The notes under the pieces are model-generated. The model saw only the letters and a list, made by a program, of their open reading frames with translations. It was not told the DNA's origin and made no database searches. Below are positions 1 through 15,072 of a stretch of DNA of 64,000 nt, piece by piece. Source of the stretch: a virus; the IMG/VR virus record IMGVR_UViG_3300047546_001733, positions 1-64,000 of that record, one strand, 5' to 3'. The stretch's first letter is position 1, and each line of letters starts with the position of its first letter. The translations under genes and the position numbers were made by a program.

Positions 1-134
1 AGGCTTTGAAGTATTGTAGTGCGGTCTACGACTTTGTAACGCAGTAAACGCTTTCCCTCTGCTTCCCCTTGAAAAAGTGGGAGGTAGGGGGTAGGGGGTC
101 CCCCTCCCCGCTCCGTAAGAAAACCCCCACGCCA

Positions 135-371
135 TTACTGGCTGGGGGCTTCTTTGTAGTGTAAAGGGTAGCGATTACGAAACCACTCCATATACGCAAG
201 AGCCATATGAAACATCATGTAGTCGTAGGCTTCATCGCCAATGAACGAAGTTGAATCTACATCCTTATCCGTGTTGAAGTAGATTTCGCTGTTGTGCTCG
301 TGAACCATACGGTGGAGAGTGTTGAAACATTCCCCACCGTAGATTTCTGGCATCTGAATCTTATTCATCAC
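135..371 (-). CDS. hypothetical phage protein
   Basis: ORF overlapping the stop of 368..637; ends just before a repeat copy. Confidence 0.7.
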   Translation of the reverse strand: MMNKIQMPEIYGGECFNTLHRMVHEHNSEIYFNTDKDVDSTSFIGDEAYDYMMFHMALAYMEWFRNRYPLHYKEAPSQ

Positions 372-637
372 GCCAACACCTTTGACAACAACGACACAGG
401 AGTCATGTCCGAGAACAAACCATGGAAGTGAGCAAACTTACCAAACGAACCATACTCACCACGGAAGCGTTCGGCAACCAAGTGCATCAACGTCTGGTCA
501 ATCTTTTTCTCGTACCAGTGACCCGAGTTCTTGAAACGAACCACAATCGTGTTCTGGTCGGGAATCAACGCAACACGGTCAACAGCCGACGAACGGTCAT
601 TCGAAACATTCACAATTACAGTCTTCATAAAAGTCAT
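368..637 (-). CDS. KTSC-domain-like protein
   Basis: SSAVDRV...IVVRFKNSGHWY...GSFGKF resembles the KTSC pattern SS-I..V-F..G..Y...S-G-YF; AAGGAG RBS and own promoter. Confidence 0.55.
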   Translation of the reverse strand: MTFMKTVIVNVSNDRSSAVDRVALIPDQNTIVVRFKNSGHWYEKKIDQTLMHLVAERFRGEYGSFGKFAHFHGLFSDMTPVSLLSKVLA

Positions 638-663
638 TCTCCTTAATTAAGATTACTCTGTAA

Positions 664-692
664 GTATACCACACAATCAAACTCTTGTCAAG
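664..692 (-). promoter_or_regulatory. sigma70-type promoter
   Basis: Minus strand TTGACA-17 bp (ending TGTGG)-TATACT. Confidence 0.85.
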
Positions 693-695
693 CCC

Positions 696-923
696 CTAAT
701 AATCTTCGCCGTCATCTTCAGCAACATACTCAATCTTCATCGTCACAAACTTGTCGTACAACATCACAAGTGTGCGAGCCTGTCTGACCAAGTGTGGCAA
801 AGCCATAGCCTCGTACCCACTCCAGTCCACAGTACGTGTGTCAACTGCGTCCATCAACTTCTCAACACAAATCTCAAGGTCATGGCTAGTGTTCTCAAAC
901 GCGCAATACGATAATGTAGGCAA
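696..923 (-). CDS. hypothetical protein, acidic C-terminus
   Basis: GAGGAGG RBS, TTG start, TGnTATAAT upstream at ~955. Confidence 0.75.
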   Translation of the reverse strand: MPTLSYCAFENTSHDLEICVEKLMDAVDTRTVDWSGYEAMALPHLVRQARTLVMLYDKFVTMKIEYVAEDDGEDY

Positions 924-1036
924 CTCAACACCTCCTCTTCATTACTACTCTTAGATTATAGCACAGAATAACAGAGCGTGCATTAAAATAAGATGAGAGA
1001 TTAGGGGGTAGGGGGTGCCCCTCCCCCGCCCATACG

Positions 1037-1072
1037 AAAACCCCCACCGAGGATGGTGGGGGCTTCTTTTTT
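1037..1072. terminator. bidirectional intrinsic terminator
   Basis: AAAA-CCCCCACC-loop-GGTGGGGG-CTTCTTTTTT. Confidence 0.65.
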
Positions 1073-1074
1073 AT

Positions 1075-1296
1075 TTATCGAATGATTGTTGCTTTAATAT
1101 TATGCTTTAACAGGAAGTCAATGATACCAAAGTAGTTTTCGTTTTCAAGAAGTTCGGTGAACTCGTCGTCGTATTCAGTGGGTATCGTTTCCATGTCGAA
1201 CACCACGATACTGTCATAGATAGGTCCGCAGTTACCATCAGAAGCCACGTAGAAAGAAAACTCGCCGTTAATCTCAATGGTCTGTATGTTACTCAT
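1075..1296 (-). CDS. hypothetical protein
   Basis: GGAGA RBS; 4-nt overlap with upstream gene. Confidence 0.75.
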   Translation of the reverse strand: MSNIQTIEINGEFSFYVASDGNCGPIYDSIVVFDMETIPTEYDDEFTELLENENYFGIIDFLLKHNIKATIIR

Positions 1297-1565
1297 ATTC
1301 TCTCCAAATATAAATTACCGCCGACAACTACCAAGTGTAACTGATACGGCTGTAATAACTCATTAATCTCATCCAGCATATCATCAACCACATAGACTAT
1401 AGCACCGAGCTGGGTTTCGTCGTCTAATTTAAACTCTGGTTTTACAAACTTACTATAGAACGAATATTGTTTCCAGTACCACTGGTAACTGCCAAGATTA
1501 TCTCCCAGCAGTACCAGTGTCGGGTTAGTACGGAACGAACGAACCAAATCAGTTATTGTCTTCAA
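1293..1565 (-). CDS. hypothetical protein
   Basis: Middle gene of a three-gene overlapping cassette. Confidence 0.65.
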   Translation of the reverse strand: MKTITDLVRSFRTNPTLVLLGDNLGSYQWYWKQYSFYSKFVKPEFKLDDETQLGAIVYVVDDMLDEINELLQPYQLHLVVVGGNLYLERI

Positions 1566-1998
1566 CGGATTCCTCTGGCGTGTCTAGCATAGTGAGAAAC
1601 TTGCTAATCTTGTAAACTGATTCATACGAACCATCACGCATCAAGTAGCAAAGACACATCCAAAACGACTCAAATCGCACACTCAACTCACGCAATTCTT
1701 CGATGTAATCATCCTTGTATATTGCCTCCGTAATGAGACTGGTCATTGACCAAAACAGAATATTCTCTTTCTTTGGTGTTTCCGGCTTGTCTTCAGTCTC
1801 GTTTACTTCCTCGATGATAGTTTCGATGTCGTCGCCGAGAGAATCAACATCACGCTCCCACTGACGAATGTTAGAAAGTACATCATTGATGTAGTCTACA
1901 GCAGACTCAAGGTCACTGTAATCAAAACTCTGATACAACTCACGAGCCTTGCCCTTGACAACTTCCAAGTCACCAGCAAACTTCTTAATGTCGCTCAT
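1549..1998 (-). CDS. hypothetical acidic coiled-coil protein
   Basis: GAGGAG RBS before ATG at 1998 (MSDIKK); TTGACA..TGTGGTATACT promoter at ~2031-2059. Confidence 0.75.
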   Translation of the reverse strand: MSDIKKFAGDLEVVKGKARELYQSFDYSDLESAVDYINDVLSNIRQWERDVDSLGDDIETIIEEVNETEDKPETPKKENILFWSMTSLITEAIYKDDYIEELRELSVRFESFWMCLCYLMRDGSYESVYKISKFLTMLDTPEESVEDNN

Positions 1999-2048
1999 AA
2001 CGCTCCTCATATAATCATTACTACTCTGTTAGTATACCACAGGTCGGA

Positions 2049-2300
2049 CTACTTGTCAAGCAACGGTGCTTTGAATACCTTCATCTGTTTCTCATGCAAC
2101 TTCTCGTAATGCTTCTGGTTATCCATATCCATTACCGAGATGTCGTGAGCGTAGACGCTTCCAGCCTCTTCAGCCCAACCGAACACGAAACACAAAGGGG
2201 TAGCCGTGTTGACTTGTCCGATAATCTTCGCATACCAACCACCGTACCAAACCCAGTCGCCCTTTTTGAATCCCAGTGCCTTCGCAGTTTTGTTACTCAC
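2049..2300 (-). CDS. hypothetical protein (SH3/KOW-like FKKGDWV start)
   Basis: AAGGA RBS, GTG start, TGCTATAAT upstream. Confidence 0.7.
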   Translation of the reverse strand: MSNKTAKALGFKKGDWVWYGGWYAKIIGQVNTATPLCFVFGWAEEAGSVYAHDISVMDMDNQKHYEKLHEKQMKVFKAPLLDK

Positions 2301-2433
2301 GTTCGTTTCCTTTCTTCTTGACTACCTTTGTATTATAGCACGGAATTGCAGGTAATACATTAAAGCCAGATGAGAATTTAGGGGGTAGGGGGTGCCCCAG
2401 CCCCGAGGGCTTCGAAAAGCCCCCGGGATATAC

Positions 2434-2820
2434 CTAGGGTTGCACACGCTCAAGACATAACAACAACTGATAACCACGTCGTATGAAGTAATAATTGATA
2501 CCATACGTACCTGTATTTGGTCGCCATTCCATAAGGTACTTATACGCCTCGGCTTCCACAATCGCATACTTCACATGGTCTGCCTGTGACGCAAAAGACA
2601 CATCATTTAAAATCTCAAACATAATGGGCTGTGGTAGCATACGCAACAGAGAAACCCACGCAATAGCATACCAGTCGTGATGCGGGAGGACATGGTCTTC
2701 GTGTAACCCAAACTCTCGAATAACAACACCCGTGTGTCCATTGTCAAATACTTCAACATTGTTACCTGTATACAAATCATGTGCATACGCAAACAACTCA
2801 CAGTTAGTCCAAATACTCAT
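2434..2820 (-). CDS. hypothetical protein
   Basis: AAGGAG RBS, TGGTATACT upstream. Confidence 0.75.
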   Translation of the reverse strand: MSIWTNCELFAYAHDLYTGNNVEVFDNGHTGVVIREFGLHEDHVLPHHDWYAIAWVSLLRMLPQPIMFEILNDVSFASQADHVKYAIVEAEAYKYLMEWRPNTGTYGINYYFIRRGYQLLLCLERVQP

Positions 2821-3013
2821 AATAACTCCTTACTTACTAATCCTTACTTAGTATACCACATTTGAATTGTAAAATCAAGTTTTAAATTTTGAATTTTGAA
2901 TTTTAGTTTATGGAGTTTTTTTTTGATAGTTTTTTTTTCTCATCTACTTTTAATGTTATTCTGGTAGTTTCTGTGGTATACTAAGAATGTAGTCGAAGAG
3001 AGGAGATTTTTAC

Positions 3014-3508
3014 ATGAGCACTTTTGATTTGAAGACGTGGCAAGACCGACAGAAGTTTATCTATCAGGTGGGGCTTAATCATCGCATTGTACTGGGTAAT
3101 GAGTTTGAGCGGAAGTTTCGTGAAGTAGTCGCAGTCGTAACTACCGCAGACTCTGGTGAACCGAATACGTATGACCACATCTGGAGTTACGGTCAGTTTT
3201 CTGATTATCCTATGTGGAATGCTCGGGCTGTGATTCGCTCTGTACTTGAGAGTAATTCGTTGAGATACTTCATTGTGTACCAGACAAGCATAACAGAGCC
3301 GACACAGAACGAAGTAGACTGGTTGCGCCGTATTGCACGAATAGGCTGGGGTTTGGGTCTTCATATGCAGGACGTGGTACGCTTGACTTACGACAATCAC
3401 CTACCAATGTTCAGCCCCAATTATGAACCCAACATGGAATCACAGTTATGGAATGACACACCACTTTGGAAAGCAATCAATACTAAATTAACGGCGGTGG
3501 CAGAATGA
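3014..3508 (+). CDS. hypothetical protein (inverted cassette)
   Basis: GAGGAGA RBS; TGTGGTATACT at 2972-2982 on plus strand. Confidence 0.8.
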   Translation: MSTFDLKTWQDRQKFIYQVGLNHRIVLGNEFERKFREVVAVVTTADSGEPNTYDHIWSYGQFSDYPMWNARAVIRSVLESNSLRYFIVYQTSITEPTQNEVDWLRRIARIGWGLGLHMQDVVRLTYDNHLPMFSPNYEPNMESQLWNDTPLWKAINTKLTAVAE

Positions 3509-3714
3509 AAGATTCATTTGTATTTAACGTGCTTGTGTTCGCAGACAAGGAATGGTATATCTACACACAGTGTGATAGTGCACGGTATGCGGAAAAGTGT
3601 TTGGCTCGATTTATTGAGGAAACTCCCCGCAATCAATATCACTCAACGCTGATTACCTTCCTACCACGAAGTGACCGATTACATTCATGGGACTTCTATC
3701 GCCACTGGGAGTAG
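3505..3714 (+). CDS. hypothetical protein (inverted cassette)
   Basis: ATGA overlap with 3014..3508. Confidence 0.7.
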   Translation: MKDSFVFNVLVFADKEWYIYTQCDSARYAEKCLARFIEETPRNQYHSTLITFLPRSDRLHSWDFYRHWE

Positions 3715-3826
3715 TCCCGCATCTCAAAAAAAAAATTAATACGGAGCACCCCATATACCTAAGTGCGGGGTGTTCTGTATTAATTAGGGGCAGGGGGTCC
3801 CCCTACCCCCAAAAAAAGCCTTGACC

Positions 3827-4114
3827 CTATGGATTATCCATAGAGTCAAAGGTTTTGCTCATCGCTTTTTGCATCAGTTCGGAATACAGGGCAACACGTT
3901 TGTCAAGGTTGGCTTGCCACATATCTTCCGTTTCTTGGGCACGAATACGCACCGCACGCCACAACTCAACGAATTGCTGATATTGATGCAAGTCTTGAAA
4001 CTGTGAATCTGGGTCTTGCAACTTCTGCGCTTGCTCCATGAAGTGAATCATCATAGATTCAAGCATACGTTGTGCGTTCTTAACCAACATCTGAAAGTCT
4101 TGTTCATTATTCAT
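3827..4114 (-). CDS. hypothetical helical protein
   Basis: GGGAGA RBS; overlaps upstream gene. Confidence 0.7.
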   Translation of the reverse strand: MNNEQDFQMLVKNAQRMLESMMIHFMEQAQKLQDPDSQFQDLHQYQQFVELWRAVRIRAQETEDMWQANLDKRVALYSELMQKAMSKTFDSMDNP

Positions 4115-4385: not shown

Positions 4386-4578
4386 CGCACTCTCCTCTTC
4401 TTGACTACATATGTATTATACCACGGAATCTATTATCTGTACATTAGTAACTAATGAGAATCAGGTGGGGGTAGGGGGACCCCCTACCCCCTAAACCCAA
4501 AAACCGATTATGATTTTTGGATTTTTAATTTTTTCCATTTTTCAATTTTTTGATTTTTGGATTTAGGGGTGGTGTATT

Positions 4579-5301: not shown

Positions 5302-5488
5302 AACATCCTCCATCACTTGATTACATCTTATTATAGCACAGATTATCATTAAGTAGTATGAGAATTAGATTAGAGCACGGTAGTCTATAATAGTATATAC
5401 GAAAATTGCATATTTGCAAATACCTAAGTGCTAAGTAATTGAGCAGTAGGGGGTAGGGGGTCCCCCTGCCCCTGATAACCCGCCCACT

Positions 5489-5866: not shown

Positions 5867-5867
5867 A

Positions 5868-6029: not shown

Positions 6030-6051
6030 CTTGCTCTCCTCTTATTAATAA

Positions 6052-6184
6052 TGGTGGAGATGGGCGGAATTGAACCGCCGTCCAAAACTCGGTGCGTCAC
6101 TTAAGACGACGGACTTTCACGTCTTTCCATGGGCAGTTATCGCTACTCGTCCATGCCGAACCTTGTCGATACCATGTCATCCCC
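6052..6184 (-). ncRNA. ssrA: mini-tmRNA (133 nt; intact tRNA-like domain, greatly reduced mRNA-like domain)
   Basis: 5' GGGGAUG pairs with CAUCUCC-ACCA with G3.U70; stemless D-loop ACAUGGUAUCGAC; 9-bp H2 helix; GGAC-GGCGG-UUCAAUU-CCGCC T-arm; own TGnTATAAT promoter at 6195-6203. Confidence 0.9.
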
Positions 6185-6281
6185 TTACTCTCTTATTATA
6201 ACACAGACCACACCAAAGTAAAATGAGAATCAGATGAGAGGTTTAGGGGGTAGGGGGTCCCCCTGCCCCGCTGTAAACCAT

Positions 6282-6611
6282 TTACAGCAGGGACTTAATT
6301 GCATCTCGTGCAATTTTTAATTGGTTAGGGTCTATTGTTAATTGCCCGCTGAAGTCGTGTATAAAAACCCGCACAGTGTAATTAGCATACAGTTGATTAT
6401 ATATACAGTAAGTAACATCTTTAGCATATGACTTACCGTGGCAAATTTCAGCAACGACACCAGAGATACGCAATATTCTAATATCCTTGCCAACATAACT
6501 AATAATAGCGTGTTCGATTGCTTCTAACTCTGTCGGTCGTGATGCACTCGGAATTATTTCAGAGTAAACACCATTTTTGTTTGTATAAATTGAAGCACTA
6601 AAATATGACAT
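6282..6611 (-). CDS. hypothetical protein
   Basis: Second gene of cassette; stop lies in the TGTAAA palindrome. Confidence 0.7.
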   Translation of the reverse strand: MSYFSASIYTNKNGVYSEIIPSASRPTELEAIEHAIISYVGKDIRILRISGVVAEICHGKSYAKDVTYCIYNQLYANYTVRVFIHDFSGQLTIDPNQLKIARDAIKSLL

Positions 6612-6911: not shown

Positions 6912-7018
6912 CGTGTTCCTCTTTCTCTCGATTACATATGTATTATACCATGGATTTTTGAATTTTAAAATGAGAATTAGATGAGAGGTTTAGGGGGTAG
7001 GGGGTCCCCCTGCCCCGC

Positions 7019-7258: not shown

Positions 7259-7456
7259 GTTGTTCTCCTTCACTTGATTACAATTTATTATAGCATAGAT
7301 TTTTGAATTTTAAAATGAGAATTAGGTGAGAGATTTAGGGGGTAGGGGGTCCCCCTGCCCCCACTGTAAAACTACAGCAGGGTCACGACTAGTACGACCA
7401 AAAGATAACGACAAGCAATACAGTAAAGATAATAAATCCGCCCATGCTATTCTCCT

Positions 7457-7651: not shown

Positions 7652-7765
7652 AACATTCTCCTTCTCTTGATTACATCTTATTATATCACGGATTCTTTAA
7701 TTTTAAAATGAGAATTAGATAAGAGGCTTAGGGGGTAGGGGGGTCCCCCTGCCCCCAGAAAAAGT

Positions 7766-8137: not shown

Positions 8138-8292
8138 ATCGTGCGCTCCTTCTCTTGATTACACTTTATTATAACATTGATTTTTCAATTTTAGTATTAA
8201 AATTAGATAAGAAATCTGCATTTTTGCAAATATATAAGTGCTAGTAAATTGAACGAGGGGGCAGGGGGACCCCCTACCCCCTACCGTAGCGA

Positions 8293-8568: not shown

Positions 8569-8673
8569 AACACATCCTTTCCTACATATGTAGTATACCA
8601 CAGATTACCTCTTTTTTACATTAAAGTAACATGAGAGTTGTAGGGGGTAGGGGGTGACCCACGCATGAAGACA

Positions 8674-8862: not shown

Positions 8863-8872
8863 ACTTCTCTCC

Positions 8873-8956: not shown

Positions 8957-9121
8957 AGTGACTCCTTTACTTGATTACAATTTATTATAACACAGGTTTA
9001 CTGGGGATTATATGAGAAATAGATAAGAGGCAACTCGCAATAACGCAAATAACTAAGTGCGGGGTTTTTGGTCGATAAGGGGGTAGGGGGTCCCCCTACC
9101 CCCTAGTGTAAAGACTTTACA

Positions 9122-9313
9122 CTAGGCTTGCCGGAGGAGCTTGTGAAGTTCGTGTTCACAGCGGTGGATAGCGTCGATAGTCGGACCCGTTTCCCCACAG
9201 CACGGACACAGGAAAGGAAGGAGAAGGTCAAGCTTGCGGATTTCACGCTTTAGGGCGATGATGAGTAGGCGACGCTTCAGTGCCTTTTGTTGCTTGACGG
9301 TCTTCTTGTGCAT
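9122..9313 (-). CDS. basic CPCC microprotein (paralog of 12443..12622)
   Basis: Own TTGACA-17-TACAAT promoter; shared KK..KQ..AL..RL..I.LKR.I...CPCC. Confidence 0.8.
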   Translation of the reverse strand: MHKKTVKQQKALKRRLLIIALKREIRKLDLLLPFLCPCCGETGPTIDAIHRCEHELHKLLRQA

Positions 9314-9476
9314 AGTAAACCCCCTTCATCTAACTTGATAATTTATTGTATCACGAACGGAGCAGTTTGTCAATAGGCAATTTATTGTTTACAGCCCACC
9401 TAAAAGGTGTAAAGTGTTTCGCGGGGGAGGGGGACCCCCTACCCCCTACTGTAAAGTGTTTACAGCAGGGTTGTGC

Positions 9477-9644: not shown

Positions 9645-9808
9645 TTGAGCACTCCTTGATTAACTTGATTACATCCTATTTTAGCACGGTTATAAAGGAA
9701 TTGCAATAGACTTTTATGAAAATTAGATGAGAGAAAATATTTAACACGGTGTAAACAGTTTAGGGGGTAGGGGGTGCCCCACTGTAAACACTTTACAGTG
9801 GGAGTCGA

Positions 9809-10015: not shown

Positions 10016-10160
10016 AAAAACTCTCCTTAACTTCTCTTACATACGTATTATACCACGGATAAGGGAAAACTTTTATGAGAACTAGATGAGAAATAATGCT
10101 TTACACCGTGTAAACAATTTAGGGGGGAGGGGGGACCCCATACCCCCTAGTGTAAAGTGT

Positions 10161-10313: not shown

Positions 10314-10453
10314 TGGAAAATCCTTCTATCTAACTTGATAATTCATTGTATCATGAATTGGTACTGTTGTCAAGGGGTTTTTATGAGAATTACCTGATAT
10401 TTATCTGATAAATAATTATTTACAATCCACCTAAAAGGTGTAAAGTGTTTACA

Positions 10454-10648
10454 CTAGCGGAGTTTCATGCGGGAAGCGGACTCCATGCACAGCGCACAAC
10501 CGCACAAAATTTTGCTGACCAGCTTATGACGGCGAGCCTTGCGTTGTAACGCCACAAACTCCTCCCGAGTCATTTGCTCAAAGCCGTGCATGGTCAAAAA
10601 CACCTTAAAGATGGTGTCACGCACAAGACGCATTTTTAATTCTTCCAC
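10454..10648 (-). CDS. basic CxCxxC microprotein
   Basis: AAGGAG RBS, GTG start; TTGACA-17-TAAAAT promoter. Confidence 0.75.
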   Translation of the reverse strand: MEELKMRLVRDTIFKVFLTMHGFEQMTREEFVALQRKARRHKLVSKILCGCALCMESASRMKLR

Positions 10649-10919
10649 AAAAAACTCCTTACCACCAAAAATTCAATTACATCCTATTTTAGCACGTAAT
10701 CGGTGACTTGTCAATAGACTTTTATGAGAATTAGATGAGAAAAAATATTTGACAAGGTGTAAACAATTTAGGGGGTAGGGGGACCCCCTACCCCCTACTG
10801 TAAAGACTTTACAGCGGGGTGAGGATTAGTCACGCCATAGTAAGCAGATTACAAGCACAGCAAGCGGTTTTGAGATGATTACTAAGACCAAAAGCAGTTC
10901 GAGGCTCATTCGGAACTCC

Positions 10920-11150
10920 TTACAGCTCAACGAACTTGAATCCGCCCTCGTCAATCATTACCGCTTGCGAGTGAGTTGTGCCCCCGTCGGTTTCGAACTT
11001 GATGTCGAACACGCTACAGGTGGGGTCAGCGTGAAAAGAACCCCGCAATTCGTATTCAAGGTCTTCACGAAAACCGCCCACGTCGTCAATCTCACCTTGC
11101 AGGATGAACTCGAACTTTCCCTCACGGGTCACGGTTGCCTTCATGTACAT
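10920..11150 (-). CDS. acidic protein (paralog of 11309..11557)
   Basis: MKATVTREGKF...DIKFE vs MRAVVTKGGKF...DVRFE. Confidence 0.8.
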   Translation of the reverse strand: MYMKATVTREGKFEFILQGEIDDVGGFREDLEYELRGSFHADPTCSVFDIKFETDGGTTHSQAVMIDEGGFKFVEL

Positions 11151-11308
11151 AATGCGCCCTTTCTCTCGGCTACACAGTAATTATACCACAGATTTTTCAA
11201 TTTTAAAATGAGAATTACATGAGAAATAATTCTTTACAAGGTGTAAACAATTTAGGGGGTAGGGGGTCCCCCTACCCCCTAGTGTAAAGGGTTTACACTA
11301 GGAGACGG

Positions 11309-11557
11309 TTAGCGATGGAGAAACTCGACGTCGCCCCTACCTGCACCATGTACCACCGCTTTAAACTCGCTGACAAACGTACCAGTGGCGTCGGTGAACT
11401 CGAAGCGGACATCGACCAGACCGACCTCGCCACCTGTGGCAAAGGAAATCTCGTCCGCCAACGTTTGGGAGAACTCGGCGACATCTCCCTTAAACTCCTC
11501 GCAACGAACTTCAACGACAAATTTCCCGCCCTTGGTGACTACCGCACGCATACGCAT
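11309..11557 (-). CDS. acidic protein (paralog of 10920..11150)
   Basis: AAGGAG RBS; paralog similarity. Confidence 0.8.
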   Translation of the reverse strand: MRMRAVVTKGGKFVVEVRCEEFKGDVAEFSQTLADEISFATGGEVGLVDVRFEFTDATGTFVSEFKAVVHGAGRGDVEFLHR

Positions 11558-11570
11558 AATCTGGACTCCT

Positions 11571-11822
11571 TTATTTGATGTTTGCTTTTACGGAAAACTT
11601 CATTGAATCCATAGTTACTGAGATGACATGGTTTACATTTTTAATCACCAAATCAGTGTCGTTCACGTCATAGGCTGGTAACGCCATACCACCCAAGTAA
11701 ATCGGCTCGTCGGTCATACGCACTAAGAACAGCGTCGTATACGTAGTATTTTCTTTTGTTTCTAGCGTTACTCGCAAATCGTGAAAACTTGCCGAAAATG
11801 GAAATTGATACTGTACTCGCAT
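11571..11822 (-). CDS. hypothetical protein
   Basis: GGGAG RBS; TGGTATAAT promoter. Confidence 0.75.
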   Translation of the reverse strand: MRVQYQFPFSASFHDLRVTLETKENTTYTTLFLVRMTDEPIYLGGMALPAYDVNDTDLVIKNVNHVISVTMDSMKFSVKANIK

Positions 11823-11991
11823 AACACTCCCTTTCTGTCGGTTACATCTTATTATACCATGCTTTTTCGATTTTGAATATGAGAATTAGATAAGAGATAA
11901 TTCTTTACACAGTGTAAAGAGTTTTGCGGGGCGGGGGCACCCCCTACCCCCTAGTGTAAAGGGTTTACACCAGAAGATGAAACTCCTTACA

Positions 11992-12303
11992 CTATTCGCA
12001 CTCTGGTGTTGATTCCTCGATTGGCTCGAATTGCTCGATGGCTCTCATCATAGCACGCACCTGCTTGCGAATGATGCGCTTTGCGTGTTTCATAGCCTTT
12101 GAATGGTCGTGAATGTCGAACGGACGAACACGCTCACCAGCAAAGAAAATTGAAGAATCCTCCTCGATGATACCGTCCTTCTGGACGATGTCCACACGAA
12201 CCATGACCTTCTTTTCTTCGGGAATCTCGATGGCGACAACAATCGCCTCTTTCCAGCCACCAGCGAAGACCACAACGTGAGCGACGTGTTGCTCTTTTGG
12301 CAT
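11992..12303 (-). CDS. hypothetical protein
   Basis: AAGGAGG RBS; TGGTATAAT promoter. Confidence 0.8.
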   Translation of the reverse strand: MPKEQHVAHVVVFAGGWKEAIVVAIEIPEEKKVMVRVDIVQKDGIIEEDSSIFFAGERVRPFDIHDHSKAMKHAKRIIRKQVRAMMRAIEQFEPIEESTPECE

Positions 12304-12442
12304 ACCAGCCTCCTTACTAACCTTACACTAGAATTATACCACACTTTAGATTAAAATAGTATGAAAATTAGATGAGAAATAATTGTTTACACAGTGTAAA
12401 GCGTGGGGGTAGGGGGACCCCCTACCCCCTACTGTAAACCAT

Positions 12443-12622
12443 TTACAGTGAGAAGAAAAACTCACGACGCAGTTCCATCAAAAATTGATGCGCCTCGTCT
12501 GCTTCACAGCATGGGCAAGCCATCGAGAGCATAAACTCCGCCCGCTTAATTGCACGCTTTAACTGAATCAAGCGTAAACGCTTCCGCAGTGCGAGCATTT
12601 GCTTTTGTGACTTTTTCCGCAT
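12443..12622 (-). CDS. 59-aa basic CPCC microprotein (paralog of 9122..9313)
   Basis: Hand translation MRKKSQKQMLALRKRLRLIQLKRAIKR...ACPCCE; GGAGG RBS. Confidence 0.8.
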   Translation of the reverse strand: MRKKSQKQMLALRKRLRLIQLKRAIKRAEFMLSMACPCCEADEAHQFLMELRREFFFSL

Positions 12623-12651
12623 TTTAGCCTCCGTTAAATAATGGACACGTT

Positions 12652-12903
12652 TTACACCTGCACAATGTGCGCTTTAGATGTAACCGTATCACGAACAGCC
12701 ACGGAATGAACAGTACCGCCATGAGTAGACGTAACGAACACGTCCAAAGAATCCACCAACGGGAACATCGAGAACAGGAAGGAAGCCTCATCACGGACTA
12801 CTTCCATCAAGAAAACAAACTCGCCGAACGTGCACACATCTTGACCAAACTCGGCAAATGTCTTCTCACCACCAGCAAGGCGAACGGTCACAAAATCAGT
12901 CAT
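12652..12903 (-). CDS. hypothetical protein
   Basis: Likely start MTDF at 12903, downstream of the promoter at ~12936. Confidence 0.7.
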   Translation of the reverse strand: MTDFVTVRLAGGEKTFAEFGQDVCTFGEFVFLMEVVRDEASFLFSMFPLVDSLDVFVTSTHGGTVHSVAVRDTVTSKAHIVQV

Positions 12904-13066
12904 GGCAAGCCCTTTCTCTTGTCTTACAGGTAAATTATACCACAAATGAGCAACGTTGAACATGAGAATTAGATGAGAAACAATGTTTTACACGGTGTAA
13001 AGAATTTAGGGGGTAGGGGGTGCCCCACGCCCCCAGTGTAAAGACTTTACACTAGGGGTTTTGCGG

Positions 13067-13237
13067 TTACATCGACGGAATCACCTTGAGCAATTCCAAA
13101 CAGCTCAACACGACACCGACCAAGAAACGCAAGAGCGCACCGACCAAACGGACACACACGACCAAAACCTTACACACAAGCAAGAACGGAAACATGAGAA
13201 CGGCGGCGACCATGCGAGTTGCGTCAGACTTGTACAT
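13067..13237 (-). CDS. 56-aa hydrophobic protein (paralog of 9477..9644)
   Basis: MYKSDATRMVAAVLMFP...KVIPSM; GAGGAG RBS. Confidence 0.8.
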   Translation of the reverse strand: MYKSDATRMVAAVLMFPFLLVCKVLVVCVRLVGALLRFLVGVVLSCLELLKVIPSM

Positions 13238-13408
13238 GAAGTTATCTCTCCTCTTCTCGGTTACAGTTAATTATACCACGCTTTTTCGATTTTGAATATT
13301 AGAATTAGATGAGAGGTAATTATTTACACAGTGTAAAGAGTTCGGCGGGGCACCCCCTACCCCCTACTGTAAAGTGTTTACAGTAGATGAGCGTGAATTA
13401 CGCCCGCC

Positions 13409-13492
13409 TTACTTCCACATCAAATACACAATAACAGCAATAATGGGCTTGATGAGCAACAGCAGAACAATGCCAAAGGTTAGACCGAGCAT
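13409..13492 (-). CDS. 27-aa single-TM peptide (paralog of 8873..8956)
   Basis: MLGLTFGIVLLLLIKPIIAVIVYLMWK; GAGGT RBS. Confidence 0.75.
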   Translation of the reverse strand: MLGLTFGIVLLLLIKPIIAVIVYLMWK

Positions 13493-13640
13493 ACGCACCT
13501 CTTCTATTCGGTTACAGTTAATTATACCACGGCTTTTGAATTTTGAATATTAGAGAAAGATGATAGGTATCTGTTGAGCAATTCTTTACACGGTGTAAAG
13601 CGTTTAGGGGGTAGGGGGTCCCCCTGCCCCAAGTGTAAAT

Positions 13641-13667
13641 AATAAAACCCGCCGATTACTCGGCGAG
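13641..13667 (-). terminator. intrinsic terminator of RNA operon 1
   Basis: CTCGCCGA-GTAA-TCGGCGGG followed by TTTTATTATTT. Confidence 0.8.
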
Positions 13668-13678
13668 TGTAAATAGTT

Positions 13679-13779
13679 TGGGTCCCTACTCTGGATTCGA
13701 ACCAGCGTTCGCTCCGAGTGAGTATCTAGAATCAATCGGATTTACCGCACCCACGGAATTTATTAAGCGATGTTAGGGC
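13679..13779 (-). ncRNA. tRNA-like RNA copy D
   Basis: T-arm CUGG-UUCGAAU-CCAG, imperfect terminal stem, UCGCU/AGCGA helix, CCGUGGGUGCGG hairpin, UCCGA/UCGGA stem with UUCUAGA loop. Confidence 0.8.
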
Positions 13780-13785
13780 AAGTGT

Positions 13786-13885
13786 TGGTAAGAGGTGGAT
13801 TCGAACCACCATGACACTCTAATGAAGGGTCTAGAATCCATTAGATTTACCGCACCTACGGAATGGATTAAGTGTCGTTCAAACC
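13786..13885 (-). ncRNA. tRNA-like RNA copy C
   Basis: T-arm GGUGG-UUCGAAU-CCACC, GGUUUGA/UCUUACC-A acceptor-like stem, GACACU/AGUGUC helix, UCUAAUG/CAUUAGA stem with UUCUAGA loop. Confidence 0.85.
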
Positions 13886-13934
13886 GTAATTTAGGTTAGT
13901 TTTGGGAAAGACCATCACTCAACCTTATGTACTA

Positions 13935-13963
13935 AGTATACCACTGGCTAGATTTCTTGTCAA
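13935..13963 (-). promoter_or_regulatory. sigma70-type promoter of RNA operon 1
   Basis: TTGACA-17 bp-TATACT with TGG extension. Confidence 0.85.
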
Positions 13964-14222
13964 GGGGCAATTTGAATTTCAAAATGAGAATTAGATGAGA
14001 ATTGTTTTTTTCGTATCTGCATCTTTGCGGGCAGATGTGGTAGGGGGTAGGGGGTGCCCCTACCTGTACTGTATTTATTTTGATGTAATTTTTGTTTTTA
14101 AATTGAAATTTCAATTTTATTTTTTTTTCTTTTATATTTAAAACAAAGTTTGCACTCAGATAAAAACTGAGAATAAAAGTATTGTGGTCTCTCTGAAGTT
14201 AACCCCCCTCAGAGACTCAGGG

Positions 14223-14321
14223 ACCAAGTTAAGAGAGTGACTCTTCTGAGAGGGGTATTTCACCCTCACGTCGGTACGAAGTAGTGAGTCCGTGGACTAC
14301 TTACCGCTCTCTTAACTTGAT
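14223..14321 (-). ncRNA. putative ~99-nt structured RNA
   Basis: TTGACA-17-TACAAT promoter (14327-14355); 15-bp terminal helix AUCAAGUUAAGAGAG/CUCUCUUAACUUGGU enclosing two stem-loops; no RBS or ORF. Confidence 0.6.
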
Positions 14322-14480
14322 AATTCATTGTATCATGAATGAACAACCTTGTCAAGAGAGTTTTATGAGAATTAGATGAGTTTCTCTCATATGTTGGTGG
14401 GGCGGCGTGAGAATGACTCTATAACCGAGTGTAAAGAGTTTTAGGGGCGGGGGGACCCCCTACCCCCACACCAGTGTAAA

Positions 14481-14508
14481 TAATAAACCCGCCGGATTTA
14501 CCGACGGG
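14481..14508 (-). terminator. intrinsic terminator of RNA operon 2
   Basis: CCCGTCGG-TAAAT-CCGGCGGG followed by TTTATTATTT. Confidence 0.8.
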
Positions 14509-14519
14509 TGTAAATAGTT

Positions 14520-14625
14520 TGGTCTCTCCCAACAGGATTCGAACCTGCTTGCTGGTCTTACAGAGTATCTAGAATCCATAAGATTTACCGTACCCACGGA
14601 TTTGGTTTAACCAGCATTAGGAGGA
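14520..14625 (-). ncRNA. tRNA-like RNA copy B
   Basis: T-arm GCAGG-UUCGAAU-CCUGU, CUCCUA/UGGGAG stem, ends ACCA, UGCUGGU/ACCAGCA helix, UCUUAU/GUAAGA stem with UUCUAGA loop. Confidence 0.85.
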
Positions 14626-14630
14626 TGGTC

Positions 14631-14729
14631 TGGTCTGAGGTGGAATCGAACCACCGTTCCGGTCTTGTCAGAGTCTAGAATCCACAAGAGGTACCGCACC
14701 TACGGTATGTTTTAACCGGAGTTCAGTCC
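14631..14729 (-). ncRNA. tRNA-like RNA copy A
   Basis: T-arm GGUGG-UUCGAUU-CCACC, GGACUGA/UCAGACC-A stem, UCCGGU/ACCGGA helix, UCUUGU/ACAAGA stem with UUCUAGA loop. Confidence 0.85.
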
Positions 14730-14778
14730 ACAAATTAGGCAGTTAGCGGGGAAACCGTTCACTTAACCTTATGTACTA

Positions 14779-14807
14779 AGTATACCACGGTTAATGTGCT
14801 GTGTCAA
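14779..14807 (-). promoter_or_regulatory. sigma70-type promoter of RNA operon 2
   Basis: TTGACA-17 bp-TATACT; -10 and start region GTGGTATACTTAGTACATAAGGTT identical to operon 1. Confidence 0.85.
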
Positions 14808-15072
14808 GTGACTATTATGAGAATTACATGAGAATGGCGCGCGTTACATACAGTAATTATCCGCCCGCCACATACCTAAGTGCATTACCATAGGGGGTAG
14901 GGGGTACCCTCTTTATTCTTCTACCGCTTCCAGATGCTGTATATTGGCAAATATATATTAAGCCATTGTAATAAGTGCCTTTTTTTAGGGGGTAGGGGGT
15001 GTCCGCTGGTTGCGAACCGCGCTTCGTTATGTCGAGTGGGGTTTATGGCTTCCTAATGCGGTAAAATGCTTA

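What the first reader, a model, noticed from the sequence alone, without database searches (positions are those of the whole stretch)
87..15005. 15-kb array of ~28 self-promoted cassettes separated by a composite palindromic repeat
Seen: in transcription direction each full spacer reads ORF stop, TGTAAA-N3-TTTACA, a 25-bp palindrome GGGGGTAGGGGG(T/A)CCCCCTACCCCC, TTTACA-N3-TGTAAA, a YTCTCAT-N4-YTCTCAT box, a TGnTATAAT promoter, a GTAATCAAG-type leader, an RBS and 1-3 small genes or ncRNAs. Spacers resemble their neighbours most: left copies lack the TGTAAA palindromes, while most copies at 9.7-13.6 kb have two. The G/C palindrome mostly has no U-tract and I saw none beyond 15 kb. Established: promoter/stem-loop (PeSL) repeats shuffle modules in some T4-type phages, and integron attC sites recombine as single-stranded hairpins. 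Inference: this is an early host-takeover or anti-defence region built as a recombinable accordion. No integrase is visible here, but RecA, a Cas4-like exonuclease and a resolvase are.
Basis: partly seen in the sequence, partly recalled or inferred. Interest (0 to 1): 0.8.

Follow-up and report, generated by a model that had tools for sequence, protein, structure and literature searches.

The report
Shuffling early-gene cassette array in phage
An uncultured freshwater phage packs about 28 tiny self-contained gene units into 15 kb, each separated by the same hairpin-plus-promoter control module, and related phages have gained, lost and reordered these units by recombining within that module, a denser variant of a design already known from T4-type phages.

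Summary
Window 80-15005 is the leftward-transcribed arm of a 72-kb phage genome. It holds 27 copies or half-copies of GGGGGTAGGGGG-W-CCCCCTACCCCC (none elsewhere apart from the overlapping contig end), 28 intergenic TGnTAnAnT promoters, 17 TCTCAT-N5-TCTCAT boxes and 18 TGTAAA/TTTACA palindromes. Chance expects about none of these.

It is a fused 3'-end/promoter cassette array of the PeSL kind (Arbiol 2010), in a phage that is not T4-like.

New points:
- The TCTCAT repeat sits 36, 46 or 57 bp from the extended -10, so on one helical face.
- The A/T hairpin shows clean covariation (GC 18, CG 11, none unpaired). The G/C palindrome shows none, yet it is letter-identical in relatives whose proteins are only 24-71% identical.
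- In three cases a canonical terminator lies directly upstream of the palindrome.

Relatives and four metagenome runs differ by whole cassettes. Three mapped crossovers lie in three different conserved blocks of the repeat, which indicates homologous rather than site-specific recombination. No integrase, serine recombinase or Y1 transposase is present.

Early timing, termination and gene functions remain inferred. This scan has reported similar modules on other phage DNA. Verdict: a real feature and a new variant of a known kind, of moderate interest.

The parts
80..15005 (-). Whole array: about 28 leftward cassettes (36 small ORFs, 4 ncRNA genes) plus one inverted cassette. Bounded on the left by convergent plus-strand genes across the contig junction, and on the right by a divergent plus-strand promoter at 15073-15101.
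80..155 (-). Left end: (TAGGGGG)2 palindrome at 80-111, then a bidirectional hairpin terminator at about 119-155. The copy at the other contig end carries three heptamers.
629..695 (-). Unit with a full sigma-70 promoter (TTGACA-17-TGGTATACT, -10 at 671) and no palindrome.
924..1074 (-). Unit: canonical terminator at 1040-1062, imperfect palindrome at 1004-1028, single TCTCAT, promoter at 963.
1999..2059 (-). Full sigma-70 promoter (-10 at 2039).
2301..2433 (-). Unit: palindrome with a degenerate distal arm at 2381-2405, single TCTCAT, promoter at 2340.
2821..3013 (.). AT-rich phased-A tract with divergent promoters: minus-strand at 2858 and plus-strand at 2974. The plus-strand promoter has a TCTCAT-like repeat at the same 36-bp spacing.
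3014..3826 (+). Inverted cassette: two plus-strand ORFs (3014-3508, 3505-3714), ended by the palindrome at 3786-3810, facing the terminator of the convergent gene at 3819-3851.
   Evidence: the homologue in G002 is also on the plus strand
4386..4578 (-). Unit: AT-rich tract, perfect palindrome at 4467-4491, promoter at 4423.
5302..5488 (-). Unit: palindrome at 5449-5473, GCACTTAGGTAT module, TCTCAT repeat at 5358-5374, promoter at 5338.
6030..6291 (-). Unit plus ncRNA: A/T hairpin at 6272-6286, palindrome at 6246-6270, repeat at 6223-6239, promoter at 6203, mini-tmRNA at 6052-6184.
6912..7018 (-). Compact unit: palindrome at 6993-7017, repeat at 6970-6986, promoter at 6950.
7259..7383 (-). Compact unit: palindrome at 7338-7362, repeat at 7315-7331, promoter at 7295.
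7652..7765 (-). Compact unit: palindrome at 7731-7756 (2-nt centre), repeat at 7708-7724, promoter at 7688.
8138..8292 (-). Unit: palindrome at 8257-8281, GCACTTA module, degenerate repeat, promoter at 8176.
8569..8673 (-). Unit: half-site only at 8643-8654, single TCTCAT, promoter at 8600.
8957..9126 (-). Unit: A/T hairpin at 9107-9121, perfect palindrome at 9079-9103, repeat at 9012-9028, promoter at 8992.
9314..9476 (-). Unit: A/T hairpin at 9450-9464, palindrome at 9422-9446, full sigma-70 promoter (-10 at 9353). End point of a ~1-kb joint in run X6.
9645..9808 (-). Unit: A/T hairpin at 9783-9797, half-site at 9763-9774, repeat at 9716-9732, promoter at 9686 (TTGCAA -35, 46-bp class).
10016..10160 (-). 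Unit: palindrome at 10122-10147, TTTACA-N3-TGTAAA at 10100-10114, repeat at 10075-10091, promoter at 10055.
10314..10453 (-). Unit without a G/C palindrome: A/T hairpin at 10439-10453, full sigma-70 promoter (-10 at 10353). Other end point of the X6 joints.
10649..10825 (-). Full unit: A/T hairpin at 10799-10813, perfect palindrome at 10771-10795, repeat at 10724-10740, TTGACA promoter (-10 at 10694, 46-bp class).
11151..11308 (-). Full unit U1: hairpin at 11283-11297, perfect palindrome at 11255-11279, 11233-11247, repeat at 11208-11224, promoter at 11188. One boundary of the 672-bp indel.
11309..11822 (-). Cassette A (ORFs 11309-11557 and 11571-11822). Present here and in run X5. Absent from G001, L026 and L027. 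No cover in X6, X8 or X9.
11823..11991 (-). Full unit U2: hairpin at 11955-11969, palindrome at 11927-11951, 11904-11918, repeat at 11879-11895, promoter at 11859.
12304..12452 (-). Full unit: hairpin at 12433-12447, perfect palindrome at 12405-12429, 12386-12400, repeat at 12361-12377, promoter at 12341. One boundary of the 601-bp indel.
12443..12903 (-). Cassette B (ORFs 12443-12622 and 12652-12903). Present here and in L026, absent from G001.
12904..13066 (-). Full unit: hairpin at 13037-13051, palindrome at 13009-13033, 12987-13001, repeat at 12962-12978, promoter at 12942.
13238..13408 (-). Full unit: hairpin at 13368-13382, palindrome with a degenerate proximal arm at 13340-13364, 13323-13337, repeat at 13298-13314, promoter at 13278.
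13493..13676 (-). Unit: canonical terminator at 13647-13668, followed by the palindrome at 13607-13631, then 13585-13599, a degenerate repeat and the promoter at 13529.
13677..14067 (-). ncRNA cassette 1: two tRNA-like modules (13677-13751, 13781-13856), TTGACA promoter (-10 at 13943, 57-bp class), repeat at 13984-14000, half-site at 14043-14054.
14150..14510 (-). ncRNA cassette 2 (about 14160-14330): TTGACA promoter (-10 at 14335), repeat at 14365-14381, palindrome at 14443-14467, preceded by a canonical terminator at 14487-14509.
14519..15005 (-). ncRNA cassette 3: two tRNA-like modules (14519-14594, about 14626-14705), first promoter of the array (-10 at 14787, 46-bp class), repeat at 14817-14833, and two half-sites (14893-14904, 14988-14999) with no gene upstream to terminate.

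Best explanation
This is the leftward-transcribed accessory arm (probably the early arm) of an uncultured ~72-kb freshwater phage. It is built from about 28 autonomous mini-operons.

The composite spacer is a fused 3'-end/5'-start control module that works like the PeSL terminator-promoter cassettes of T4-type phages.

1. In the RNA of the upstream cassette, an A/U hairpin (TGTAAA-N3-TTTACA, often containing the stop codon) stacks on a 12-bp G/C hairpin. Together they end, attenuate or 3'-stabilise that transcript and insulate the next unit.
2. A TCTCAT-N5-TCTCAT direct repeat binds a still unknown protein on one face of the helix, next to an extended -10 promoter (TGnTATAAT) read by the host sigma-70-type RNA polymerase.
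3. A short conserved leader and a strong Shine-Dalgarno sequence start the next gene.

The same 15-35-bp identical blocks recur about every 500 bp. Homologous recombination can therefore delete, insert, duplicate, reorder and (because the G/C element is a palindrome) invert whole cassettes, and each cassette keeps its own promoter and 3' end. The phage encodes UvsX/RecA-like, Cas4-like exonuclease and SbcD/Mre11-like proteins that could carry this out.

Shown here: the anatomy, its conservation, covariation of the A/T hairpin, the three spacing classes, cassette flux with crossovers inside the repeat, and the absence of site-specific recombinases.

Inferred: promoter activity and early timing, the termination or stabilising role, who reads the TCTCAT repeat and the G/C word, and what the ORFs do.
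For: Anatomy and non-randomness.

Phage context: portal, terminase, RNR, primase, DnaB, PolA, UvsX-like, Cas4-like, metallophosphoesterase.

The same palindrome, TCTCAT repeat, A/T hairpin and extended -10 occur in three IMG/VR contigs and 13 metagenome contigs. They are confined to one array in each contig. G002 array proteins are only 24-71% identical to those of the window.

TCTCAT repeat to TGn distance in 65 unique units: 36 bp in 44 (no -35), 46 bp in 11 and 57 bp in 2 (both classes with TTGAC-type -35 boxes), and 34-37 bp in 8.

A/T hairpin, 33 sequences: closing pair GC 18, CG 11, 0 unpaired; next pair AU 16, GU 9; covariation score 0.076 against 0.043 in shuffles, reached by 0 of 500 shuffles. 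Sense RNA folds into stacked hairpins of -30 to -46 kcal/mol.

Cassette flux against the 96%-identical G001: window-only 672 bp (11267-11938, palindrome to palindrome, 2 genes) and window-only 601 bp (12366-12966, TCTCAT box to TCTCAT box, 2 genes). A third haplotype, L026, lacks A but has B. In L018 the cassette order is g032-, g020-, g028-, g034-, g035-, g036-like, with a palindrome between each.

Crossovers mapped by informative sites: inside hairpin 1 and the G arm up to the centre (L012, L026); between the TCTCAT repeat and the spacer (L027); inside the TCTCAT repeat (L012, indel B).

Contigs of four runs from four studies: joints 9313>10327 and 9448>10438 between paralogous promoter/hairpin modules (X6), joint 5866>6039 (X6, X8), and cassette A covered only in X5.

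Paralogues: three 27-aa peptides, two 55-56-aa proteins, two CPCC proteins, two double tRNA-like RNAs. Neighbouring units are the most alike.

PeSL stem-loops are described as polyG-loop-polyC, and one tested stem-loop terminated about as well as rrnB T1 (PMC2839356 section 13, read).
Against: No transcript data exist, so promoters, timing and 3' ends are all predictions.

The G/C hairpin lacks a U-tract in most copies (3 of 27 pass the scan; 16 of 81 units have at least 5 T in 10 nt). None of its pairs shows a change on both sides, and its departures are mostly mismatches. Antisense RNA would fold better in 50 of 78 units, against 24 for sense.

Canonical hairpin-plus-U terminators lie directly upstream of the palindrome at 1040-1062, 13647-13668 and 14487-14509. 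Two half-sites lie upstream of the first promoter, where nothing needs terminating. Five of the 27 loci are half-sites with no hairpin. A terminator-only role therefore does not explain the element.

Letter-perfect conservation across divergent relatives points to a sequence-specific reader that I could not identify.

Two of the four gene-sized indels against G001 are not bounded by the repeat: 163 bp at 5868-6030, and 137 bp after 9310.

The constant 36-bp spacing could partly reflect common descent of the units. The phasing argument rests on only three spacing classes.
Confidence: 0.75

Rival explanations
1. The G/C palindrome, or its promoter-proximal half CCCCCTACCCCC-TA, is mainly a DNA-level site for a sequence-specific protein. 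That protein could be a repressor or roadblock like a stoperator, an insulator, or a nuclease that starts recombination. The RNA hairpin would then be secondary. This reading can coexist with the main one.
For: The 25-mer is identical in relatives with 24-71% protein identity. No compensatory changes occur in 67 unique 25-mers; the G and C runs are almost invariant and only the TA step varies. The promoter-proximal arm is perfect in 52 of 67 and the distal arm in 42 of 67. Half-sites persist without a partner arm, including two before the first promoter. Canonical terminators sit immediately upstream of three copies. One mapped crossover ends at the palindrome centre, and the centre base is flipped A/T in perfect palindromes between the window and G001.
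Against: The distance from the palindrome to the TCTCAT repeat is not quantised (4 to 74 bp), so it is not phased with the promoter. No candidate binding protein emerged. Hairpin potential is kept in 70 of 78 unique units. Gene conversion among about 27 copies could keep the sequence uniform within a genome.
Confidence: 0.3
2. The array is an integron-like or other site-specific system. The hairpins would act as attC-like single-strand recombination sites, or as REP-like sites for a Y1 (RAYT) enzyme, that excise and insert cassettes as circles.
For: Cassettes are bounded by strong palindromes. One search, table 5c, lists one backward joint in a single run (14004>2885, X8) that would fit a circle junction, a duplication or another gene order.
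Against: No Phage_integrase, Resolvase or Y1_Tnp match in the genome (controls were positive). Crossovers fall in three different blocks of the repeat. The palindrome is perfect, without the extrahelical bases that define attC (recalled). The palindrome is absent from 185,579 prokaryote species genomes.
Confidence: 0.04
3. The repeat is only a set of regulatory signals kept alike by selection. The cassette differences between relatives arise by ordinary illegitimate or gene-boundary recombination, so the repeat has no special part in plasticity.
For: Two of the four gene-sized indels against G001 are at gene borders without repeats. Repeats occupy a large share of the intergenic DNA, so some coincidence is expected.
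Against: Three of three hybrid units examined switch parent inside identical tracts of the repeat. The X6 joints link paralogous modules. The shuffled blocks in L018 each start and end at repeats. The most complete repeats (9-13.6 kb) coincide with the most variable gene content, while the left part with degenerate repeats keeps its order in G002, L017 and L019.
Confidence: 0.12

Closest known systems
PeSLs (promoter-early stem-loops) of T4-type phages RB49/phi1, T4/PST and KVP40/nt-1 (Arbiol 2010, PMC2839356: abstract and sections 13 and 16 read; Comeau 2014, PMC4122927: abstract and passages read)
   Same: Repeated intergenic modules that join a G-run/C-run stem-loop to a strong sigma-70-type promoter and a Shine-Dalgarno sequence. 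They are concentrated in front of ORFans in a plastic region. Indels between close relatives are bounded by them, leaving chimeric modules. Recombination is homology-based in a phage that carries its own recombinase.
   Different: The phage is 72 kb, with no DNA or large-terminase match to any of 50,697 deposited phage genomes. The modules form one contiguous 15-kb array rather than dispersed hyperplastic regions. The stem-loop lies 40-110 bp upstream of the -10 rather than within or next to the promoter. Most promoters lack a -35 and instead carry a phased TCTCAT direct repeat. There is an extra covarying A/T hairpin. The 25-bp palindrome is letter-identical across divergent relatives. Mini-circles were not tested.
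Stoperators of Cluster A mycobacteriophages (PMC9283540, abstract in a search listing only)
   Same: A short word repeated many times in small intergenic gaps and oriented relative to transcription. It offers a precedent for a protein that stops elongation at many sites.
   Different: Stoperators are asymmetric 13-14-bp sites spread over a whole temperate genome and bound by the immunity repressor. Here the word is a palindrome confined to one arm, and no repressor or integrase was found.
REP/BIME palindromes of enterobacteria and RNase III sites between phage T7 early genes (recalled, not looked up)
   Same: Repeated extragenic hairpins at the 3' ends of genes that stabilise upstream mRNA or mark processing sites without a U-tract.
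   Different: REPs are host elements linked to RAYT transposases, and none is present here. T7 early genes share one promoter cluster, whereas here every unit has its own.
Integron attC cassettes
   Same: Small promoter-poor or ORFan cassettes separated by hairpin-forming repeats, with a variable cassette set between relatives.
   Different: No integrase or attI. Every cassette has its own promoter. The palindromes are perfect. The crossovers do not fall at a single core.

Membership tests
PeSL (promoter-early stem-loop) cassettes | Sigma-70-like promoter repeated in intergenic spaces with an AT-rich upstream region | tested here: met
   28 intergenic TGnTAnAnT sites, 8 with TTGACA-17; AT-rich spacers and tracts. 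Activity was not measured.
PeSL (promoter-early stem-loop) cassettes | Stable stem-loop, often polyG-loop-polyC, joined to the promoter motif | tested here: met
   G5TAG5-W-C5TAC5 in 27 loci; mean sense MFE -21 kcal/mol over 78 unique units. Its position differs: 40-110 bp upstream of the -10.
PeSL (promoter-early stem-loop) cassettes | Preferentially upstream of ORFans in plastic regions | tested here: met
   37 of 39 array ORFs have no PHROG match; the motifs are confined to 15 of 72 kb.
PeSL (promoter-early stem-loop) cassettes | Indels and replacements between close relatives bounded by the motif, leaving a chimeric motif | tested here: met
   2 of 4 gene-sized indels against G001 are bounded by the repeat; 3 of 3 hybrid units examined are chimeric.
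PeSL (promoter-early stem-loop) cassettes | Stem-loop terminates or attenuates transcription; promoter is strong in vivo | not testable with these tools
   No RNA run holds the stretch. Only 3 of 27 palindromes look like intrinsic terminators.
PeSL (promoter-early stem-loop) cassettes | Mini-circles formed by recombination between neighbouring motifs | tested here: inconclusive
   Only contigs could be laid. One backward joint (14004>2885, X8) appears in table 5c and is ambiguous.
PeSL (promoter-early stem-loop) cassettes | Host phage is a T4-type myovirus | tested here: not met
   72-kb genome; no megablast match, and no tblastn match for the terminase, in 50,697 phage records. The capsid-region protein gives only weak partial hits to cyanophage and Vibrio phage proteins.
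Integron (attC cassette array) | Tyrosine integrase (IntI) next to the array | tested here: not met
   PF00589: 0 matches in the own genome; control positive in 14 of 14 genomes.
Integron (attC cassette array) | Recombination at one conserved core of an imperfect hairpin | tested here: not met
   Crossovers lie in three different blocks; the palindromes are perfect or near perfect.
REP/RAYT (REPtron) elements | Y1 HUH transposase (RAYT) associated with the palindromes | tested here: not met
   PF01797: 0 matches. The palindrome is absent from 185,579 species genomes.
Canonical intrinsic terminator | GC-rich hairpin followed at once by a U-tract | tested here: not met
   3 of 27 pass the scan. 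The tail begins TAAA in 26 of 81 units, and at least 5 T in 10 nt occurs in 16 of 81. Canonical terminators do exist in the same array.
Class II/class I activator-type site (as lambda CII or PhoB-type direct repeats; recalled) | Direct repeat at helical period, at fixed helical phase to the -10, replacing the -35 | tested here: inconclusive
   11-bp period; distances of 36, 46 and 57 bp in 57 of 65 unique units; the 36-bp class lacks a -35. No binding protein was identified.

The most novel reading that the evidence does not exclude
The three invariant words (the G5TAG5/C5TAC5 palindrome, the TGTAAA hairpin and the TCTCAT-N5-TCTCAT repeat) may form a lineage-specific control code read by dedicated, still unknown factors. 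In this reading the TCTCAT repeat takes the place of the -35 as the dock for an activator or shut-off protein. The G/C palindrome would be a sequence-specific protein site rather than a terminator. Its hairpin or cruciform could be cut at the centre, for example by the phage's SbcD/Mre11-like nuclease, to seed cassette exchange. That would account for half-palindromes at array edges, the crossover that ends at the centre, and the A/T flips of the centre base.
Probability: 0.2. Interest if true: 0.7.

Novelty: new variant of a known kind. Interest (0 to 1): 0.45.

Why it matters
It extends PeSL-type 'portable promoter-terminator' architecture well outside the T4-like phages. The example is unusually clean: 27 palindromes and 28 promoters in 15 kb, with several natural haplotypes in public freshwater data. 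Cassette gain, loss and reordering can therefore be followed crossover by crossover. The helically phased direct repeat, and a palindrome that stays letter-identical while proteins diverge to 24-71% identity, predict two unknown sequence-specific readers that reporter and pull-down assays could find. The array is also a store of about 36 ORFans and four unusual small RNAs (a mini-tmRNA and tRNA-like RNAs) that are plausible host-takeover or counter-defence factors.

Tried and rejected
- Megablast of 1-15100 against 50,697 phage records: no match. tblastn of the large terminase: no match. The capsid-region protein gives only 19-20% coverage hits to Vibrio, Nodularia and Synechococcus phages.
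- Exact palindrome in 185,579 species genomes: 0 hits, so it is not a host repeat.
- The search for related loci with the DUF7227 protein alone found only G001.
- PHROGs on 39 array ORFs and Pfam on 35: 2 ORFs with PHROG matches (both to families of unknown function). Pfam gave only DUF7227 above its cut-off, plus two sub-threshold hits.
- ESM Atlas for the basic CPCC protein at 9122-9313: no usable lead. I did not pursue a reader protein further.
- Integrase, serine recombinase and Y1 transposase profiles: none.
- RNA evidence: no RNA holder listed.
- Parts of the array without contig cover in some runs are not used as evidence, except where a contig joins across them.
- Rfam at a permissive threshold on 13400-15100 gave only a 19.5-bit tRNA match and two chance-level hits.
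- The third A/T element (TTTACA-N3-TGTAAA) shows no flanking covariation, so I do not claim it as a hairpin.
- G-quadruplex, MITE and target-site-duplication readings of the TTTACAC flanks were considered and dropped for lack of any test.
- Literature: searching the three motif strings anywhere in text found 46 papers. The 10 listed were on unrelated subjects such as mitochondria, human genes and influenza. A six-term search for repeated intergenic early-promoter/terminator hairpins in phage genomes returned 0 papers.
- Earlier notes of this scan: none on this genome or on look-alike DNA.

Full report
OBSERVATION. The window is the first 64 kb of a single 72,156-bp contig with 41% G+C. Its ends overlap by about 180 bp.
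- The pattern GGGGGTAGGGGGWCCCCCTACCCCC has 17 matches with at most 3 mismatches, all between 87 and 14467. Shuffles expect 0.
- Counting half-sites gives 27 loci between 80 and 14999. The only other copy lies in the terminal overlap. Five loci are perfect, 20 score at least 21 of 24, and five are half-sites only.
- TCTCAT-N5-TCTCAT occurs 18 times, all on the minus strand at 5358-14833, against 0.27 expected.
- TGTAAA-N3-TTTACA occurs 11 times and TTTACA-N3-TGTAAA 7 times, only at 6.3-13.6 kb, against 0 and 0.02 expected.
- There are 28 intergenic minus-strand TGnTAnAnT boxes between 671 and 14787. Eight of them have a perfect TTGACA at 17 bp.
- Neighbouring spacers are indeed the most alike: Spearman -0.38, best partner within two ranks for 15 of 28, and no permutation of 2000 as high.

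CONTEXT. The genome is a phage. It encodes a portal, large terminase, ribonucleotide reductase, DNA methyltransferase, lysis genes, primase, DnaB-type helicase, family A polymerase, a UvsX/RecA-like recombinase, a Cas4-like exonuclease and an SbcD/Mre11-like metallophosphoesterase. It has no DNA match, and no terminase match, among 50,697 deposited phage genomes.

All array genes but two run leftwards. The array starts at a divergent promoter region near 15.0-15.1 kb. It ends at a bidirectional terminator near 120-155, facing plus-strand genes that arrive across the contig junction. Of 39 array ORFs, 37 have no PHROG match, and Pfam (35 of them scanned) names only one domain of unknown function. 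Four cassettes encode RNAs rather than proteins.

ANATOMY OF A UNIT. In transcription direction, the most complete units (10.6-13.4 kb) read as follows:
- stop codon, often inside the first stem;
- (C/G)TGTAAA-N3-TTTACA(G/C);
- TAGGGGGTAGGGGG-W-CCCCCTACCCCCTA;
- AAnTnTTTACAC (sometimes completed to TTTACA-N3-TGTAAA);
- TCTCAT-N5-TCTCAT;
- a 19-nt AT-rich spacer, then TGnTATAAT;
- 5-6 nt, then a GTAATCAAG-type start, AAGGAG and ATG.

Left-hand units are compact: the palindrome lies 6 nt from the TCTCAT repeat. Some units carry only one TCTCAT, and others carry a different insert (the GCACTTAGGTAT module). One cassette (3014-3714) is inverted and has the same promoter architecture on the plus strand.

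WHAT EACH PART LOOKS LIKE.

Promoters. There are two classes. In 65 unique units pooled from the window and its relatives, the distance from the start of the TCTCAT repeat to the TG of the extended -10 is as follows:
- 36 bp in 44 units, with no -35 box;
- 46 bp in 11 units and 57 bp in 2 units, both with TTGAC-type -35 boxes;
- 34-37 bp in the remaining 8, several of which are mis-called repeats.

Steps of 10 and 11 bp keep the repeat on one face of the helix, centred near -43, -53 and -64. That is how activator or repressor sites behave. The argument is suggestive only, because the units share ancestry. The distance from the palindrome to the TCTCAT repeat is not quantised (4-74 bp).

A/T hairpin. 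In 33 distinct units the six core pairs are invariant. The closing pair is G-C in 18 and C-G in 11, with none unpaired. The next pair is A-U in 16 and G-U in 9. The covariation score is 0.076 against 0.043 in shuffles, reached by 0 of 500 shuffles, and slid controls collapse. G-U pairs favour the sense strand, which fits an RNA hairpin, but the copies are not independent. Sense RNA folds as two stacked hairpins of -30 to -46 kcal/mol.

G/C palindrome. It behaves differently.
- In 67 unique 25-mers the G and C runs are almost invariant. Variation sits at the TA step and the outermost pair, and not one change is compensated.
- The promoter-proximal arm is perfect in 52 and the distal arm in 42. 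Antisense RNA would fold better in 50 of 78 units, against 24 for sense.
- Only 3 of 27 copies pass a terminator scan, and only 16 of 81 unique units have at least 5 T in the 10 nt after the stem.
- Three canonical hairpin-plus-U terminators lie directly upstream of a palindrome: 1040-1062, 13647-13668 and 14487-14509.
- Two half-sites precede the very first promoter.

A pure intrinsic-terminator reading is therefore insufficient.

RELATIVES. The exact 25-mer occurs in three IMG/VR contigs and 13 metagenome contigs, and in none of 185,579 prokaryote species genomes. In each viral contig the half-site is confined to one stretch: G001 at 17.9-31.6 kb of 53.6 kb, G002 at 24.2-33.8 kb up to the contig end, and G003 at 0.1-1.8 kb from the contig start. 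G002 shares only 10-11 array proteins with the window, at 24-71% identity. It nevertheless has the same palindrome, TCTCAT repeat at 36 bp, TTTACA word, extended -10 and leader. A hairpin that only needed to be stable would not stay letter-identical over that divergence, so some reader of the sequence is likely. I could not identify it.

CASSETTE FLUX. G001 is 96% identical over the array but differs as follows:
- a window-only 672 bp (11267-11938, palindrome to palindrome, two genes);
- a window-only 601 bp (12366-12966, TCTCAT box to TCTCAT box, two genes);
- a window-only 163 bp that is exactly ORF 5868-6029 and is not bounded by the repeat;
- a G001-only 137 bp with a 40-aa ORF after 9310, also not bounded by the repeat;
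- patches of 55-85% identity inside otherwise 96-100% identical DNA.

Contig L026 lacks the first block but keeps the second, giving a third haplotype.

Informative sites place the crossovers as follows:
- In L012 and L026, inside the tract shared by hairpin 1 and the G arm, ending at the palindrome centre.
- In L027, which has the same gene adjacency, between the TCTCAT repeat and the spacer, so this is an independent event.
- For the second block in L012, inside the TCTCAT repeat.

Contig L018 carries homologues of six window cassettes (60-96% identical) in the order g032, g020, g028, g034, g035, g036, with a palindrome between each. In the window g032 lies between g028 and g034, and many other cassettes intervene.

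G002 keeps the left-hand genes in nearly the same order, with two local swaps. The part with the most complete repeats is thus the most fluid.

Paralogues indicate local duplication: three 27-aa hydrophobic peptides, two 55-56-aa proteins, two basic CPCC proteins and two double tRNA-like RNAs.

POPULATION DATA. The stretch 6200-14900 is held at 40-67% of sampled words by runs from 13 freshwater-type studies, besides three possible source studies. Contigs of four runs from four studies were laid on 1-15300.
- Joints 9313>10327 (with 150 other letters between) and 9448>10438 appear in X6. They link two paralogous promoter/leader and A/T-hairpin modules and remove three cassettes.
- Joint 5866>6039 appears in X6 and X8, the same loss of ORF 5868-6029 as in G001.
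- A contig covering 11269-11969 appears only in X5.
- One backward joint (14004>2885, X8) is listed only in table 5c and is left unexplained.

These are contigs, so they show variants but not frequencies or molecule ends.

MECHANISM AND RIVALS. My best reading (0.75) is a PeSL-like terminator-promoter cassette array. The hairpins act on the upstream transcript by attenuation, insulation and 3' stability. The TCTCAT repeat and extended -10 drive the next unit. The recurring identical blocks serve as portable homology for the phage's own recombination machinery. The palindrome is symmetrical, so its copies are also inverted repeats of one another, which allows inversions such as the 3014-3714 cassette.

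- A DNA-level protein site for the G/C word (0.3, not exclusive) is favoured by its sequence conservation, the half-sites, the lack of covariation and the adjacent canonical terminators.
- An integron-like or RAYT-like site-specific system (0.04) is disfavoured. No Phage_integrase, Resolvase or Y1_Tnp match was found, and the crossovers are spread over three blocks.
- 'Regulatory repeats with no role in plasticity' (0.12) is disfavoured by the chimeric units.

COMPARISON AND NOVELTY. PeSLs were defined in T4-type phages as strong sigma-70-like early promoters joined to G(n)-loop-C(n) stem-loops, lying in front of ORFans and bounding indels between close relatives. One stem-loop was shown to terminate about as well as rrnB T1, and mini-circles were shown by PCR (PMC2839356, sections 13 and 16 read; PMC4122927, abstract and passages read).

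Here four of seven defining features are met, one is untestable, one is inconclusive and one (T4-type host phage) is not met. The system therefore works like a PeSL array but is not a member of the T4 set. The differences are:
- a single dense array;
- the stem-loop well upstream of the promoter;
- promoters without a -35 that carry a phased direct repeat;
- a second, covarying hairpin;
- a palindrome conserved to the letter across divergent relatives.

This scan has already reported PeSL-like modules on other phage DNA, though none on this genome or on look-alike DNA. I rate it a new variant of a known kind, with interest 0.45.

Noticed in passing
window 6052-6184 (-): Mini-tmRNA: 133 nt matching Rfam tmRNA end to end (71.9 bits; gathering score 47), but with only 60 nt where the model has about 300. 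It therefore has a complete tRNA-like domain with encoded CCA and almost no mRNA or pseudoknot part. ARAGORN does not call it. It has its own strong promoter (-10 at 6203).
   Followed up: partly
window 6052-6085 (-); loci L031-L042: The 3' 34 nt of the mini-tmRNA occur exactly in 12 MAG contigs: 10 are Gallionellaceae, Sideroxydans, Burkholderiales or 'beta proteobacterium', and 2 are candidate-phyla bacteria. Together with a weak Rz-like spanin hit at 20614-20997, this is a weak hint of a freshwater betaproteobacterial host.
   Followed up: partly
window 13677-13856 and 14519-14705 (-): Two ncRNA cassettes under full TTGACA promoters. Each holds two tRNA-like modules: conserved GGTGCGGTA, a stem that covaries between modules (UCUAAUG/CAUUAGA, UCCGA/UCGGA, UCUUGU/ACAAGA), a loop with invariant GAUUCUAGA (self-complementary UCUAGA), and a GGTTCGAATCC T-arm. 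Rfam tRNA scores only 19.5 bits and no D-arm is present. Each RNA ends at a canonical terminator. Runs X6, X8 and X9 carry rearranged versions (joints at 13681-13874).
   Followed up: partly
window 14160-14330 (-): A third kind of ncRNA cassette with no ORF. Its 5' end (ATCAAGTTAAGAGAG) is complementary to an internal CTCTCTTAACTTGGT and resembles the leaders of the other TTGACA-class promoters. It might pair with those leaders.
   Followed up: no
L043:7390-11972 (genome 64389-68971); window 28870-29595 and 52262-53446: Probable DNA hypermodification gene set: a Mom-like modification protein, a thymidylate-synthase-like enzyme, three methyltransferase-like proteins, three glycosyl/galactosyl transferases, a MazG-like pyrophosphatase and a weak DUF1599 'nucleotide modification' hit.
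   Followed up: no
window 80-98 versus genome 72056-72081: The two overlapping contig ends differ by one TAGGGGG heptamer (two copies against three), so the G arm is a short tandem repeat that varies in copy number.
   Followed up: no
window 9091, 10783, 11267 versus L012 10237, 12139, 12623: The single centre base of perfect palindromes is A in one genome and T in the 96%-identical relative at 3 of the 4 perfect palindromes that have a counterpart there. One of these three lies at a recombinant junction. This is more than the 4% background predicts. It would fit inversion of the hairpin centre or gene conversion between copies.
   Followed up: partly
window 14004 and 2885 (run X8): Table 5c lists a contig that goes from 14004 back to 2885 with 7 other letters between. 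Both ends lie in AAATTCAAAA-type AT-rich tracts next to promoters. It could be a circle junction, a duplication or a different gene order in a relative.
   Followed up: no
window 2870-2940, 4500-4560, 14080-14140: Long AT-rich tracts with A-runs repeating at about 10 bp (AAATTCAAAA-type), upstream of some palindromes or promoters and also present in relatives. They may be intrinsically bent DNA.
   Followed up: no
window 15303-16022 (+): The first gene outside the array (239 aa) has homologues at the array border in G001 (71% identical) and near the array in G003 (28%, opposite strand). It contains a CxxCN..K stretch that I recall as HNH-like. No Pfam or PHROG match.
   Followed up: no
window 9122-9313 and 12443-12622 (-): Paralogous 59-63-aa proteins with a very basic N-terminal helix and a CPCC motif. 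One is under a TTGACA-class promoter, and a MHKK... ORF sits behind such a promoter in G003. They are possible small nucleic-acid-binding regulators. The ESM Atlas gave no lead.
   Followed up: partly
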